DNA from: Pelomyxa schiedti | Taxonomy: Eukaryota; Protista; Evosea | NCBI GenBank assembly: GCA_020536535.1 | Contig: JAHLWZ010000249.1 | Span: forward strand, 1 to 54,931 | Reading direction: 5' to 3' | Length of the DNA stretch: 54,931 bases | Program-made: the position numbers and the translations under genes | Notes under the pieces: model-generated | The model's database searches: none | Seen by the model: the letters and a program-made list of their open reading frames with translations, nothing else | Told to the model about the DNA's origin: nothing | In this document: positions 13,480-19,900 of the stretch, in pieces | How positions within the stretch are numbered: the stretch's first letter is position 1 | Layout: every line of letters begins with the position of its first letter

Positions 13480-16400
13480 CTAGTACCCAGGTTTTTTATG
13501 TGTACGCGTGTTATGGGTGCATGTTTTCGGTTCCTGAGAGACGTCTGTGTGAATCACCGAGTGTTGGTGGATGAGGGTTTCTAGGTCACTCTGTATTTGG
13601 TCGTTATGACAAAAGAGAGATTCTTACTAGACAGTCATACTTGCCAACCAATGAGCCTGGCTAGTTCCCTGCACCCAGTGTCACAGTCCCCTTGCCAGAA
13701 CACATCCCGGTAATTGCTGGGAGAATCGAATTGAAGCCCACCTAGTGCGTGATATAGTGAGTAATGTTACAGTGCGGGAGTGGTAGGGAGAGGGAGGTAC
13801 CAGGACTGATACCGAGCAGGGTGAGGAGTGGGTCATCCGGCGTTATTCCGGCCTTTTCCCGGTTGATAAGGAGTCGCGGGACATTTGGACGCACCTTTGA
13901 AGAATCAATTTGGATACTTAAGGGCTTTGGGTGTACCTTATCAACCAAGGACGCAAATGGTTGTACAACAAGGGAAGTACCCAAAATGATGAGCAAGTCA
14001 CACTATATGGAATAAAAAGGCAGAAAAAGCCAACGAAGTACAACCTTTGGGAAGTCAGTTTTGAGCCGTTTCATGAAGGACAAGGGCAATGATTCCCCAA
14101 AGAATACAATATCTTGTTTAACATTAAATAAAGTTTAACTTTCCGTACTTTACACTTCACAAACCTGGCTTCACAAGGCCATCACACTTGCGGCACTTTG
14201 GAATTGAATCAGCTAAAATTTGCTCTGAAACTTTGTGAGCACTGAGACCATGCAAGAAATGGAGAACCCTTAACCCAGTTGGTATCATGTTTAAGTTTGC
14301 ACTTAGTGCAATGAGCATTTGCAAAAGAGCCATGAGCAAAAACTAGCTTCTCGGGAGGTATCCCTGGAAATTTGTAAGAAACCTATTTCACTGATTTAGT
14401 AATTGTACCAGCCACCAGTTCAAGTGTGTCTCTGTAATACAGGTATCAATGTAAGCAAAGAGAAGGCAAGAAAGAGCTGGGGAATTACATGTTTTGGGTG
14501 AAGCACCGCAGTAACACACCTTTTTCAGCAAGCAATCGCACAAAAAAATGAGTGGGTGTGGCCTGGAACTTTCCTGGATACATTTCCTTTGCAAGCCGGA
14601 AAAATGGCTCCGGGTTGGAAAGGAAGTACCTGAAAAATGTCAGTGGAAAATATTACCGATGATGCTTACTCCAGTTCAAAAATGGATTCTGGTCGGGGTA
14701 AATTGAACCGCTGAAGTGTGTAATACAATCCAGTGCCAACAGACCTGAAATCAGGAATACCAGCACTCACACTAATCCCCGCACCACTTTTTTTTTTTGT
14801 TGGTTGTTGTCTCCGTACTTAGAGGAGGGGTTTATGTACCTCATCACAATGATGTTTTTGAATGTACCATCCCGAATTTTACTGGCAACAGTCAGAAGGT
14901 CGAGGGAGGGGAGGATTTTCTTCTCTGTAATTACAAATTAGAAGTCGGGTGGAAAATGGGTGCCCCCTTTCCTGGGATCTTTTTGGTCCGAGCACCCAAA
15001 GGTTTTAACTGTTCAGCATTGATCACCTCTTCTGAATTTTTCACTTCCCGAGAGGGTATAGGCTTTGCTGGCGACTCACTGAAAACAAGCCTTGGTCGCT
15101 TAGGGGCTGGCTGTGCTTGATGTGGCTCGCAGTCGTCTGTTGCTGTCGCTGTCACAGAGGTTTTGTGGAGTGGTTTTCTTTTCCTCGTTTCTGATCAGAA
15201 ACGGAGATAAATGGTGGGTAGTGAGATTGCAGACTTACTTTCATTCTTCTCGGGCGTTGTAGTATCAACATCCGAGTGCGCCTTGGGTAAGTTGCTTGTC
15301 TGTTGGGCAGCCGGCGTGGATTCACTGCCACTTGGTGGTTGTTCTCCTGTATGCTTGTCGACGTCTCTAGGGCTTTTGGAAGTCTTAAGTGACTCACTTG
15401 GTTTATTTTTTAGTGGGACTCCAGCGCAGACTACAGGGTCAAATAGCCTCTAGCATTTAATGTTACTGAAGAACGTACCTGCAGACACTGTACTTTTTTG
15501 CAAGAAAGTATGTCAGGTGAAGGAACTGCGGTTTCGGGGATTCTTTGCATTGTTCTAGGAGTGTATTCTCTGGCTCCAGTCGAAATACCTTGTTTGATGT
15601 GAAAAGGAGTGGTGTGAGGTACAACGAAACTTGGGCTAGAACAGATAGCGCTTGGGGGAGTGATACATCTTGGCGGTGTGGAGATCAATTGCAGTGATTC
15701 TGTGGGTCGCGTGGCAGTAGGAGATCTAGTACAATGGAACTGATAGACAACTATTAAATCGCTATATGGTTCAAACTGCGTACTTCTAGTTTTATTCTGG
15801 GCTTGTGCGGCAGTGGGGAGCTATGCAATCTTCTGGGTGATCTAACAGCAAATTAGTCCGGAAATCGAGTTATAAAGGGAAACAACTTGAAATGAAGAGA
15901 TTTGTGCTCTACTTGGTTTTTGTCATCAGTGGTCATACCTGAATGAAGAAGTATTAGAACACATCAAAGACTTGCCACCTGAAACAAGATAGAGTACTTG
16001 AAGGAGACTGCTGAGCCCCTTTTTTAGACAGTGGTGAGCTTCCCACAGGTGAACAATCAACCAGTGTAGCCAGAGGAGAGCAAGTAGGTCCAGTGGAGTC
16101 ATCACCTTGATTTTGTTGTGAATCAGCAGTGCCAGTTCTACTAATCACCAGGGAACTCCTTCTCTTCTTTTTGCCAGAAAATGAAACTGGGCTTTTCATC
16201 CTTCCCTCACAAGAGTCATGCCCCTCACCCCCATTCACATCAACAGTCACATCCACATTGGCTCCAGGCAGTGCCGGCCGTTCACCAACGCCCATAATGT
16301 CACATAGTGCCTGCATGGGTACTGGTGCCGCCGCCACCCTCTGCGGCCTCTTGGAGGGAGTCGGAGTGGGAGATGGATATGGAGAGGGAGACAGGCCCCC

Positions 16401-16952: not shown

Positions 16953-19900
16953 TTAGGATTTACTGGCAGCATGCTTCTTGTTGAGCCTTTTTACCCGTCG
17001 GGGCGGGGTTGGGGTCTCGGGTGCTGCGGGGAATGTTAGAATCATGGGATGAAAAGCGTGGGGTTGTGGTACACACATGGGTTGTAATCGTCGTCTTCCG
17101 TTTTGTCAGAGTTGCTGTCACTAAAGTGATGCACCCGGCGTGTTTTGTGGGAGGTGCCGGATTTGCCTTCCTTTTCATCCTTTTGGTTCGCGGTTTTGGA
17201 TTTCGGCGGTTTTTCATTCGTTTGCTTGTGAGTTGGTTCTTTTCCTTTTGGTGAAGAGCGATTGTAAGTGGGGATTGTTTGTTTTAGGAGAGAATTTTTG
17301 GAATACCTTCAGAACTACTGCCGCTGCTCTTTCTTGGCCTCTTTCTTGTGGAGGGATCCCGTTCTGGTGACTGTGCATGCTTTTTTGGTTTTTTGGTCCT
17401 TATTTTCTGTGCCGGTTTCCTTTTGGGTTTCGGCTTTGTGTCACTCCCTGAGTTGCTCTCACTGTCACTTGAAGTCTTTTTTTTCATTGCTTTTCTGCTT
17501 TTGGGCTTGGTTTTATGCTTGTGTTTGCCGGTCTTAACTCTTTCTTTTGGTGACTTTTTCTTCCTTCTCTTCTCTTTTTCTTTCCTGTCTTCCTCACTTT
17601 CCTTTTCACTCCAGGAATCGCTCTCCCTACGCTGGTAACCAATTGGTTTGGATTTTATGATTTCTACGGAGTCTCCTCCATTGAGTACACTTCCGCTTCC
17701 GCTTCCGTCATCAACATCTTTATCATCAATTTGGAGCGGTGCCTCACCGTCATCATCATGGTGGATGTCTTGTATAATAACTGAGTTGTCAACGGGCTCA
17801 TTGACAGGTTCTGTAGACGGTGAATCATCATGTTCCTGCTTTGCTTTGTTGTTCTTGGTAGCTGTGGAGGGGGCTTGAGATTCAGTCTCTGTGGGTTGTT
17901 TCTTTGGAGACTGGACATTTCGTCTCTCTGGTGATGATTGGGGAGTAAGCTGTTGTTGGGGCTCATTTCTCCTTTGGGATGAACCGAGGTTGTTGGTATT
18001 ATTATATTGAAAAGTGTCTCCTCTGAAGATATTGGGGGAATGTGTGAAGTGTTGCTTGAAAACTACTGCAAGCGAGGTTCTCTTCTTAGAACTACTGGGT
18101 GTAGCGGGGATAATTTGTTCTGGCCCATGATTTCTGGTATAAGGGCTGATTCTAAACCCAGTGCTCTCATTTTCTCTACTGTTCTCATTTTCACTGCCAG
18201 ATATGTAGTCGGTATCAAAAATATAACTCGCCATAGGAATTGGTGATGGTTCGGGGATGTTCACAGGTATTTTTGGAATGAAAGGTGTAGACACTGAGGA
18301 AAATGAGTTGGATGTTTTAGCTTCAATACGACTAGGGGAAGGAGACTTTGTCGGAGAAACAGAGTTTCGAGAGGAAGAAGACTTTGTAGGGGAAACAGAT
18401 TTTCGAGGGGAAGTAGACCTTACTGTAGGAGAAGAAGACTTTGCGGGGGAAGGAGGCTTAACAGGGGAAACGAATTTTTTAGGGGAAGGAGATTTTGCAG
18501 GGGAAGGACATTTTGTGGGGGAAGGAGACTTAACAGGGGAGGTGGACTTTGTGCGCTGTAAAACTTGGCGAGTGTCACTTGAGGCACTGTCGGTTGACTC
18601 TTCATCCACATAATTTTCTTTCTGGGAATCAGGACTGAATAGATTCTTTTTGTCTCTAAGGAGAAAACTTTACGAAAAGAATAAGGTACCTTCTTGCAAG
18701 CAAGGATATCGGGAGAAGGCTTTACTGTGTCGGAAATCCGTTGCATAGTCCTGGGGGTATAAATTTTCCTTTCTGTTGATATTGATTCCCGTTTGCCTGA
18801 TTAGGTGATATTAGTGGTGGGCGAGAAGGAGGAAAGAAAACCTGGAGTTCCGGGTGTCGGAGGAGGTGTGGCACACCTTGGAATTTCGTCACTGCTTAGT
18901 TTTTTCTCGGGCCTCTCCTCGGTGTCGAAGGAAGTTTCTGTGATGGGTATGGGAGGCCCTTCCAAGATTTGTGATTCATTACTCGAAGGAGACCCTTCTA
19001 AAATTTGAGATTCTTCACTTCCTTCACTTGAATCATCCCCGCTAGGGTCTCCTTCCTGTGTTCCTTCCATGTCTTGATCGCTTTCAGAGGTATTCTTCTC
19101 TCTTGTATCAGAATCTTCACTCGAGTGCTCACTATGAGTGATTATTTCTTTGGTATCAGGTGCTGTATATATCACAGGATCATCTGTATCTCGGAGACTT
19201 TCTGTGACTGAGGCGTGGGCGTTCGCGAACTCCGAGTTTCCGTCACTTGAACTCTGTTCTTCAATGTGATTGTCACTATCATTATCGGTCTCATTTGCAA
19301 ATCCCACTCCTGTGTTACTGGAAGCCTCCATTGTATTTCTTACAAGTGTATCTGTTGAGGAAGAAACAGACTTGCTGCTTTCCAGAACTAGTAATTCTGG
19401 TGTTACTTCTGATCGGTCCAGTGGTAGAAACGAATAGGTTGTAGGAGTTTGAATAGATACAGAAGTAGCCGAGTCCTGGGGCAGTGCCGGAACTTTATAT
19501 AAGCACGGGATCTGGTAATTATCACATCAAGAAAGTAAGACATATCTTCATACATGTGGGTTTCGGGACTTGGAAGAAGGTTTAGTGTTTGTGGCTAACA
19601 CTCCAATTCGCTTATTTGCACTATTGCCAGAGTTAGCAGAAGCGGGTACTTGGGGTTGTCGGGCTGGAGTGGCATATGCATTCAATCTTTTTGCTTCTGT
19701 CCTTCTCCTTGTAGTCGGTGACCTTGAGGAAAATGAGATGTTTTAAACAGGAACTGATCTTACAGATGAAGTTGTGTTTTAGAACTTGTTTCAACTTTTT
19801 TCATACTTGTTTGTGGCTATATTGGAGATTAGCTTATAAACGGAAATGAGTGGAACCTTAAGGACTCCTTTCATATCTCGAGCCGTCAAGTTTGTGTTCT

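What the first reader, a model, noticed from the sequence alone, without database searches (positions are those of the whole stretch)
15430..18800. Two adjacent disordered proteins, one a sirtuin fusion, share an intron-split cyclin-docking-like module
Seen: the sirtuin N-terminus (~15435-15590) encodes [36 protein letters not shown]. The upstream large protein (~18630-18785) encodes [36 protein letters not shown]. Both can be split by a 44-nt phase-0 intron at the same position, and both are preceded by PRC(I/A)TPP. The surrounding sequence is unalignable. Known: Cip/Kip cyclin-binding Cy motifs read ACRRLFGP (p21) and ACRNLFGP (p27). Inference: an undescribed conserved short module, spread by tandem duplication or exon shuffling, that could put a sirtuin deacetylase and an SP/TP-rich partner under cyclin-CDK control.
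Basis: partly seen in the sequence, partly recalled or inferred. Interest (0 to 1): 0.75.

Follow-up and report, generated by a model that had tools for sequence, protein, structure and literature searches.

The report
Shared cyclin-docking module, probable sirtuin fusion
Two neighbouring genes of the amoeba Pelomyxa schiedti encode long, likely unfolded proteins that share one conserved stretch of about 55 amino acids, which likely docks cell-cycle kinases, and the second gene likely continues into a sirtuin deacetylase that the public annotation lists as a separate gene.

Summary
The module is real. Both copies lie on the minus strand of tandem Pelomyxa schiedti genes (Pelo_3201, Pelo_3200). 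The core shares 25 of 36 residues; synonymous sites are saturated (pS 0.80, pN 0.22), so the peptide is under selection. Spliced RNA contigs confirm the upstream copy's 44-nt intron and a second flanking intron. The downstream junction is predicted only.

NCBI splits Pelo_3200 from the sirtuin, probably wrongly. The conserved SIRT2 core begins 27 codons before the annotated Met, behind an acceptor with no in-frame ATG, and Pelo_3200's stop lies inside that acceptor tract. The splice donor is unresolved.

Homology crosses both flanking introns, which favours local DNA duplication over exon shuffling. No relative was found among 1.84 billion representatives.

The best mechanism is inferred: a cyclin-CDK substrate cassette (TP, TP, SP, then K-x-L-F) in proteins enriched for full CDK sites. 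It is not a Cip/Kip or SIAMESE inhibitor. Binding was not tested, and CDK control of sirtuins is already known in mammals.

The parts
16953..21020 (-). Pelo_3201 (P0002), 1211 aa, S/P/T/K-rich, no Pfam domain, 8 introns; module at aa 638-691
   Evidence: first six introns joined in RNA contigs
18861..18881 (-). Module copy A, first element PRCATPP (Thr642)
18797..18841 (-). 45-nt phase-1 intron inside copy A
   Evidence: joined in X1 and X2
18690..18796 (-). Module exon A (107 nt): YTP Thr664, SP Ser678, ends in CKK
18646..18689 (-). 44-nt phase-0 intron splitting the K-x-L-F motif of copy A
   Evidence: joined in X1 and X2
18631..18645 (-). NLFSP, completes the docking-like motif of copy A; a KEN word follows at aa 695
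18333..18551 (-). Degenerate SPxK repeat, about ten full CDK sites 36-103 aa downstream of the motif
14931..16742 (-). Pelo_3200 (P0001) as annotated, 474 aa, no Pfam domain; likely the N-terminal part of the sirtuin gene
15653..15673 (-). Module copy B, first element PRCITPP (Thr277)
15589..15630 (-). Predicted 42-nt phase-1 intron inside copy B
   Evidence: NCBI model fitted to the window; not RNA-tested
15494..15588 (-). Module exon B (95 nt): YTP Thr296, SP Ser310, ends in CKK
15450..15493 (-). Predicted 44-nt phase-0 intron of copy B; a rival donor at 15478 would give 29 nt
   Evidence: not RNA-tested
15435..15449 (-). RLFDP, completes the docking-like motif of copy B
14925..14995 (-). 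Putative fusion intron: acceptor at 14925 (or 14923/14920); donor unresolved (GT 14995, GC 14963, non-canonical GA 14971); holds the annotated Pelo_3200 stop
   Evidence: inferred
14840..14924 (-). Sirtuin exon mostly missing from the annotation: start of the SIRT2-type core
   Evidence: 22 of 27 identical to paralog P0004; that part of P0004 aligns with crystallised SIRT2 cores
13480..14844 (-). Sirtuin as annotated (P0003, 293 aa, 10 introns), SIRT2-like catalytic domain

Best explanation
Two tandem genes share a selected 55-residue module that likely arose by an old local DNA duplication and likely serves as a cyclin-CDK docking and phosphorylation cassette, and the downstream copy likely sits in the long, likely disordered N-terminus of a SIRT2-type deacetylase. 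Shown: the shared sequence, selection on it, the spliced form of copy A, CDK-site enrichment, and an intact sirtuin core that starts upstream of its annotated Met. Inferred: the K-x-L-F word binds the cyclin hydrophobic patch; the YTP threonine 22 residues upstream reaches the kinase; the first TP primes it through Cks1; phosphorylation then spreads over the many SP/TP sites and changes the location, stability or partners of both proteins, so that the deacetylase is timed by the cell cycle. My odds: duplication with selection about 0.9, fusion about 0.75, cyclin docking about 0.55.
For: Selection: pS 0.80 vs pN 0.215. The motif fits the consensus [RK]xLx{0,1}[LF] (PMC4666095). In 1211 aa of P0002 the only strict [RK]xLx?F match is the module's; P0001 has 2, one in the module, against 0.1 expected; a random 57-aa sample holds one 0.6-0.9% of the time. 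Full CDK sites: 8 vs 2.3 expected (P0001), 18 vs 4.9 (P0002), 0 in the sirtuin core and in P0004; only 2 of 26 window ORFs of 200 aa or more are enriched at p<0.05, and they are exons of these two genes. Spacing is conserved: first TP to YTP 19 and 22 aa, YTP to SP 14, YTP to the basic residue 22 in both; Cks1 priming is described as pTP 10-22 aa N-terminal of the target (PMC12982290); this geometry occurs in 0.4-0.6% of shuffles (pattern chosen after seeing the data). Fusion: the 27 codons before the annotated Met are 22 of 27 identical to paralog P0004 and belong to the crystallised SIRT2 core; that frame has no ATG back to its stop; the Pelo_3200 stop ends 4 nt before the acceptor AG within an intron-like tract with a CTAAT word, while sequence down to about 14965 is exon-like; the sirtuin is under purifying selection (catalytic part pS 0.055, pN 0.007 against its duplicate; no rate excess against P0004, 14 vs 11 unique changes). 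Duplication: both introns are shared in phase and homology crosses both.
Against: NCBI models two genes. Every in-frame fusion donor is weak or non-canonical: GT 14995 scores 1.0 bit, below all 24 training donors (1.7-8.8), and gives 71 nt; the GC and GA options need a second-choice acceptor or a non-canonical site. In copy B the rival donor 15478 scores higher (10.2 vs 5.0) and would break the motif, although its 29 nt is shorter than all 25 introns fitted (minimum 40). The looser cyclin pattern is not enriched (2 vs 2.1 and 2 vs 2.9 expected). About ten of the 18 CDK sites in P0002 come from one degenerate repeat and are not independent. Conservation rests on two sequences from one genome. 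A four-residue docking word does not explain the invariant middle block (YTPRTMQRI) or the two cysteines. Whole-gene paralogy outside the module is not significant (4 of 5 intron phases match, p 0.07). I did not retrieve a Pelomyxa cyclin, so an intact hydrophobic patch in this organism is assumed.
Confidence: 0.45

Rival explanations
1. The module is a binding site for some other shared partner, and the Cy-like ending is incidental. Candidates: PP2A-B56 through the M-x-x-I-x-E/D word, a DYRK/HIPK-type kinase through R-x-x-T-P, or an unknown chromatin scaffold.
For: The longest invariant block is the middle one, not the Cy-like word. Copy B matches an LxxIxE-type pattern at aa 300, and both copies have R-x-x-T-P in PRCxTPP. 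The LxxIxE motif is named in PMC12982290; my regex variants and the DYRK pattern are recalled.
Against: Copy A has Asp in place of the B56 Glu and does not match. L, F and P after the intron are conserved across two otherwise unrelated exons, and both proteins are enriched in full CDK sites.
Confidence: 0.27
2. The module docks cyclins, but Pelo_3200 and the sirtuin are separate genes; the sirtuin starts at a tiny first exon (ATG 15019, donor 15009) overlapping the end of Pelo_3200.
For: NCBI annotates them apart. One standalone start is open in frame. Fusion donors are weak.
Against: That start needs overlapping tandem genes, a promoter inside coding sequence and an equally weak donor (1.6 bits, 85-nt intron); the segment is exon-like down to about 14965.
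Confidence: 0.13
3. The module is a cyclin-CDK inhibitor (pseudosubstrate) element, not a substrate cassette: the extended conserved stretch would run from the cyclin patch into the kinase site.
For: About 40 conserved positions are more than simple docking needs; YTPR is a suboptimal CDK site at a fixed 22 residues from the motif.
Against: No Cip/Kip or SIAMESE feature beyond the Cy word: no Pfam match at E up to 10, no motif C, no aromatic-rich segment after the motif; the host proteins are far larger than SIM/SMR (8-19 kDa) or KRP (19-32 kDa) (PMC10904545).
Confidence: 0.1
4. The fusion is a relic: a once-canonical donor at 14971 has decayed, so the intron is retained, Pelo_3200 stops early and this sirtuin copy is barely translated.
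For: The site at 14971 has a consensus-like context but a non-canonical dinucleotide and would give a typical 47-nt in-frame intron (sequence); run X4 shows the same letters there.
Against: The sirtuin core is intact and under purifying selection; GC-AG introns are 1.59% of this genome's introns (PMC8887013), so a GC donor is a normal option.
Confidence: 0.05

Closest known systems
RxL (Cy) cyclin-docking motif with Cks1-primed multisite CDK clusters
   Same: K-x-L-F in a region without folded domain, with TP/SP sites at fixed spacing upstream and many full CDK sites nearby (PMC4666095, PMC12982290).
   Different: Embedded in a 55-residue block with 32 of 60 aligned columns invariant, split by introns, with no sequence relative found; binding untested.
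Cip/Kip inhibitors (p21, p27) and plant KRP
   Same: The Cy word (p21 RRLF, PMC4666095) followed by x-P.
Plant SIAMESE/SMR inhibitors
   Same: Recalled resemblance only: a Cys-x-Thr-Pro element upstream and a Cys-Lys-basic-Leu element downstream in a disordered chain.
   Different: Motif C (EIERFF) absent; SMRs are 8-19 kDa and confined to land plants (PMC10904545).
SIRT2-class sirtuins and CDK control of SIRT1/SIRT2
   Same: SIR2 domain; the paralog's best solved relatives are SIRT2. SIRT1 carries cyclin recognition motifs and is a cyclin B/Cdk1 substrate, and SIRT2 is phosphorylated at G2/M (PMC2602979).
   Different: A predicted N-terminal extension of about 460 residues with 8 full CDK sites, borrowed from or shared with the neighbouring gene; paralog P0004 has a short extension with none.
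Rb C-terminal cyclin-docking site (K873/K874)
   Same: Lysines inside the docking site; acetylation there impedes cyclin E-CDK2 phosphorylation, and SIRT1 deacetylates Rb (PMC9161509).
   Different: No pocket domain here; the deacetylase would be in the same chain; acetylation of the module is not shown.

Membership tests
RxL cyclin-docking motif | Matches [RK]xLx{0,1}[LF] | tested here: met
   K-N-L-F (RNA-confirmed junction) and K-R-L-F (predicted junction); consensus from PMC4666095
RxL cyclin-docking motif | Lies in an accessible, unfolded region | tested here: met
   No Pfam family at E up to 10; module alone pTM 0.14, one 6-residue helix (two-sequence alignment, so weak)
RxL cyclin-docking motif | Conserved in orthologues | tested here: inconclusive
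   Conserved between two paralogous copies; no orthologue found
RxL cyclin-docking motif | Binds the cyclin hydrophobic patch | not tested
   No complex prediction was obtained; needs a binding assay
Cks1-primed CDK substrate | Thr-Pro priming site 10-22 aa N-terminal of a target site | tested here: met
   19 and 22 aa, then 14 aa; range from PMC12982290; sequence geometry only
Cip/Kip or KRP inhibitor | CDK-inhibitory domain following the Cy motif | tested here: not met
   No Pfam match; 0 and 2 aromatic residues in the next 60 aa, no Trp; no PDB match to p21/p27 at E up to 10
SIAMESE/SMR | Motif C (EIERFF) and 8-19 kDa size | tested here: not met
SIAMESE/SMR | Motifs A and B | not tested
   Their consensus is in a figure that the tool does not hold
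SIRT2-like sirtuin | SIR2 catalytic domain with NAD-binding, catalytic His and zinc-cysteine motifs | tested here: met
   PF02146 E 2.6e-57; motifs aligned with P0004/P0005; motif roles recalled
Sirtuin fusion gene | One transcript joins the module exons to the catalytic exons | tested here: inconclusive
   No laid RNA contig bears on the junction; indirect support
Exon-shuffled module | Symmetric exon with homology ending at the intron borders | tested here: not met
   Phase 1 to phase 0; homology extends into both flanking exons; criterion from established knowledge
PP2A-B56 docking motif | LxxIxE-type word in both copies | tested here: inconclusive
   Matches in copy B, not in copy A

The most novel reading that the evidence does not exclude
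A self-contained acetylation switch on cell-cycle kinase docking: the invariant Lys-Lys pair of the K-x-L-F motif is acetylated to block cyclin binding, as at Rb K873/K874, and the sirtuin carries both the switch and its NAD-dependent eraser in one chain while also resetting the twin module on the neighbouring protein. This would couple NAD state directly to CDK access in an anaerobic amoeba.
Probability: 0.07. Interest if true: 0.78.

Novelty: new variant of a known kind. Interest (0 to 1): 0.36.

Why it matters
Disordered proteins of divergent protists rarely show which few residues matter. Here an old duplication with saturated silent sites marks out a 55-residue functional cassette that can be tested as a peptide. 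If it docks cyclins, it shows the RxL/Cks1 spacing code at work in Archamoebae and a sirtuin gaining cell-cycle control by taking on a ready-made module. It also points to a probable gene-model error (a split, N-truncated sirtuin). The reach is limited: two copies in one species, and CDK control of sirtuins is known in mammals.

Tried and rejected
No whole genome is held, so other copies in the P. schiedti proteome were sought only through the protein collections.

RNA: no contig of X1-X3 lies on Pelo_3200 or on this sirtuin copy (13252-17342 uncovered). Only short pieces of other transcripts were laid, one matching paralog P0004. Contigs show presence, not absence, so this counts neither way.

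Complex prediction of the module with a stand-in plant cyclin A2 (alignment A3) was never run because the queue was full; no verdict.

Homologue searches: 2 hits among 55 candidates, both the window's own proteins. 3 hits in 1.84 billion representatives, the third (P0006) an unrelated tandem-repeat protein, rejected. Metagenomes: 1 of 84 pattern matches passed and is a chance match at the start of an ORF next to bacterial flagellar-type genes, rejected. Viral contigs 0 of 37; prokaryote genomes 0 of 23. PDB sequences: 7 antibody chance hits.

ESM Atlas gave BRCA1 fragments (0.76) for copy A and TICRR/Treslin fragments (0.76) for copy B; both are below the tool's noise level and are not used.

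The 27-aa sirtuin exon alone finds no sirtuin in PDB; the link was made through P0004.

Whole-gene paralogy was tested by intron phases and anchored windows: not significant; the best non-module window had p 0.04 among five tested.

PP1 RVxF, PIP box, LxCxE and SMR motif C patterns: absent in both proteins. The search for cellular cyclins returned 5 (four named as plant proteins, one unnamed) and no Pelomyxa cyclin among 59 candidates. Earlier-findings look-ups returned nothing.
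Full report
Setting. The region is on the minus strand of a short-intron protist. A profile search with the two module copies returned two proteins among 55 candidates, both from a 54,931-base contig and named Pelomyxa schiedti hypothetical proteins Pelo_3200 (P0001, 474 aa) and Pelo_3201 (P0002, 1211 aa). They map exactly to 16742-14934 and 21020-16956. The sirtuin is annotated as a third gene (P0003, 293 aa, from 14844). Gene order on the minus strand is Pelo_3201, Pelo_3200, sirtuin, Mo25.

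The observation. The 36-residue core is 25 of 36 identical. Of the 25 identical residues 18 use different codons; pS is 0.80 and pN 0.215 (Fisher p 5e-8). The copies are therefore old and the peptide, not the DNA, is what is kept, which also shows that copy B has been read in this frame. The local score is 152 against a shuffle maximum of 60. Outside the module no composition-corrected match is significant. With PRCxTPP included, 32 of 60 aligned columns are invariant.

Splicing. Contigs of RNA runs X1 and X2 skip 18646-18689 and 18797-18841; run X4 does not. X1-X3 are one sample. Copy A is thus expressed as PRCATPP, the core and NLFSP in one frame. For copy B the NCBI model uses 15630-15589 and 15493-15450. 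But it yields 29 nt, while all 25 fitted introns are 40 nt or longer, and only the 44-nt form keeps the spacing to L-F-x-P seen in copy A. I rate the 44-nt form about 0.85.

Origin. In both genes the module exon starts in phase 1 and ends in phase 0 (107 and 95 nt), and similarity continues into the exon before and the exon after. The copied unit spanned at least three exons and two introns, which fits a local DNA duplication and not insertion of a single symmetric exon. Whether whole genes were duplicated is open: 4 of 5 other intron phases match in order (p 0.07) and anchored windows are not convincing.

The fusion. The annotated sirtuin starts at a Met inside the core. The 27 codons ending at that Met are 22 of 27 identical to a second P. 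schiedti sirtuin, P0004, and that part of P0004 aligns with the start of crystallised human SIRT2 cores. This frame is closed by a stop just upstream and has no ATG, so an upstream exon is needed. An acceptor at 14925 scores within the training range (5.8 bits). The annotated Pelo_3200 stop ends 4 nt before that AG, inside a 39-nt intron-like tract with a CTAAT word, while sequence down to about 14965 is exon-like (model trained on these three genes). The sirtuin is under purifying selection against a 91%-identical duplicate at window 1-2728 (catalytic part pS 0.055, pN 0.007) and shows no rate excess against P0004. One X4 variant in the unannotated exon is synonymous in the proposed frame. 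Against this: NCBI splits the genes, and the donor is unresolved. GT 14995 keeps the frame and places Pro and Leu where P0004 has them, but scores 1.0 bit; GC 14963 gives 41 or 44 nt only with the second or third AG; a site at 14971 gives 47 nt but is non-canonical; one standalone start (ATG 15019) is also open. GC-AG introns are 1.59% of this genome's introns (PMC8887013, passages). I put the fusion at about 0.75; the product would be about 770-780 aa.

Mechanism. Neither protein has a Pfam domain at E up to 10, and the module alone does not fold (pTM 0.14). The module ends in K-N-L-F or K-R-L-F, which fits [RK]xLx{0,1}[LF] (PMC4666095, passages). The strict F-ending form occurs once in P0002, in the module, and twice in P0001; the looser form is not enriched. 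Full CDK sites are enriched in both proteins (8 vs 2.3; 18 vs 4.9) and absent from the sirtuin cores. Among 26 long ORFs of the window only exons of these two genes are enriched, although about ten of the P0002 sites come from one repeat. Spacing is kept: first TP, 19 or 22 residues, YTP, 14 residues, SP, 8 residues, basic residue. Cks1 priming is described as a phospho-TP 10-22 residues N-terminal of its target (PMC12982290, passages and section 11). The same geometry appears in 0.4-0.6% of shuffles, but I chose the pattern after seeing the data, and my 16-40 residue window to the docking word is recalled. The simplest reading is a docking-plus-priming cassette that makes both proteins efficient cyclin-CDK substrates. 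Every step from docking onward is inferred. The invariant middle block and two cysteines are not explained by docking; a B56-type word fits copy B only.

Comparison with known systems. It works like an RxL-bearing CDK substrate region. It is not a Cip/Kip, KRP or SIAMESE member: no inhibitory domain, no motif C, wrong size (PMC10904545, passages and section 5 part 1). Cyclin-CDK control of sirtuins has precedent: SIRT1 has cyclin recognition motifs and Cdk1 sites (PMC2602979, passages). In Rb, K873/K874 lie in the CDK-docking site, their acetylation impedes phosphorylation, and SIRT1 deacetylates Rb (PMC9161509, passages); this is the basis of the novel case. bioRxiv 10.64898/2026.06.29.735189 (passages) gave the same RxL consensus.

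Novelty. No relative was found among 1.84 billion representatives, in the 5.8-billion collection, or in metagenome, viral or prokaryote contigs. [quoted passage not shown] 'Sirtuin + Amoebozoa + N-terminal extension' gave 1 unrelated paper, and 'Pelomyxa + cyclin' gave 27 papers, of which the 15 listed looked unrelated by title and abstract start. Subscription papers and bioRxiv supplements were not searchable.

Verdict. A real, selected, lineage-restricted module; a likely mis-split sirtuin gene; a plausible but untested cyclin-docking function. New variant of a known kind, interest 0.36.

Noticed in passing
window 1-2728 vs 11537-14250: 90.8% identical duplicate holding Mo25 and the 3' half of the sirtuin, cut at the N gap 2729-2828; the compared part is intact and under purifying selection. 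Allelic haplotig or true duplicate is unresolved.
   Followed up: partly
window 14971-14925 (-): A consensus-like donor context with a GA dinucleotide would give a typical 47-nt in-frame intron; a possible non-canonical GA-AG intron or a decayed donor. Run X4 has the same letters.
   Followed up: partly
window 16952-16743 (-): The 210 nt between the Pelo_3201 stop and the Pelo_3200 ATG are 70 open codons in the same frame as both; a longer N-terminus or a link between the two genes was not tested.
   Followed up: no
window 18952: RNA contigs of X1 and X2 carry a 21-nt in-frame insertion, one more copy of a 7-residue repeat in Pelo_3201; likely allelic.
   Followed up: no
window 18621-18613 (-): A KEN word nine residues after the docking-like motif in Pelo_3201 (aa 695), absent from copy B; not enriched over chance.
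   Followed up: partly
window 2924-3577, 4770-6389, 6530-8023 (-): Three paralogous long ORFs (36-55% identity) with no Pfam family.
   Followed up: no
window 33954-34253 and 35517-35830: Inverted repeat of about 300 nt, 87% identical, beside a 671-aa ORF with weak ankyrin matches (31957-33969); possibly the ends of a mobile element.
   Followed up: no
window 25679-26608 vs 26709-27633: 93.7% direct duplicate on both sides of the second N gap, upstream of a PAZ/Piwi gene (29281-31266); may be an assembly overlap.
   Followed up: no
window 8617-9700 (+): Glycosyltransferase family 2 exon followed by a GtrA/DPMS transmembrane domain.
   Followed up: no
window 21200-54931: Other families seen: HEAT, RPN5/PCI, two Ras, protein kinase, TANGO2, NIF phosphatase, Rho GDI (113 selected ORFs plus 25, not all ORFs).
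   Followed up: no
L002 3-1592 (-): A viral contig encodes a cyclin domain followed in the same ORF by a kinase-like domain (cyclin part supported; kinase read by eye).
   Followed up: partly
window 14744-14785: An RNA contig of X1 matching paralog P0004 is spliced where a DNA contig has an intron at the same position as this sirtuin's: the paralog is expressed and shares that intron.
   Followed up: partly
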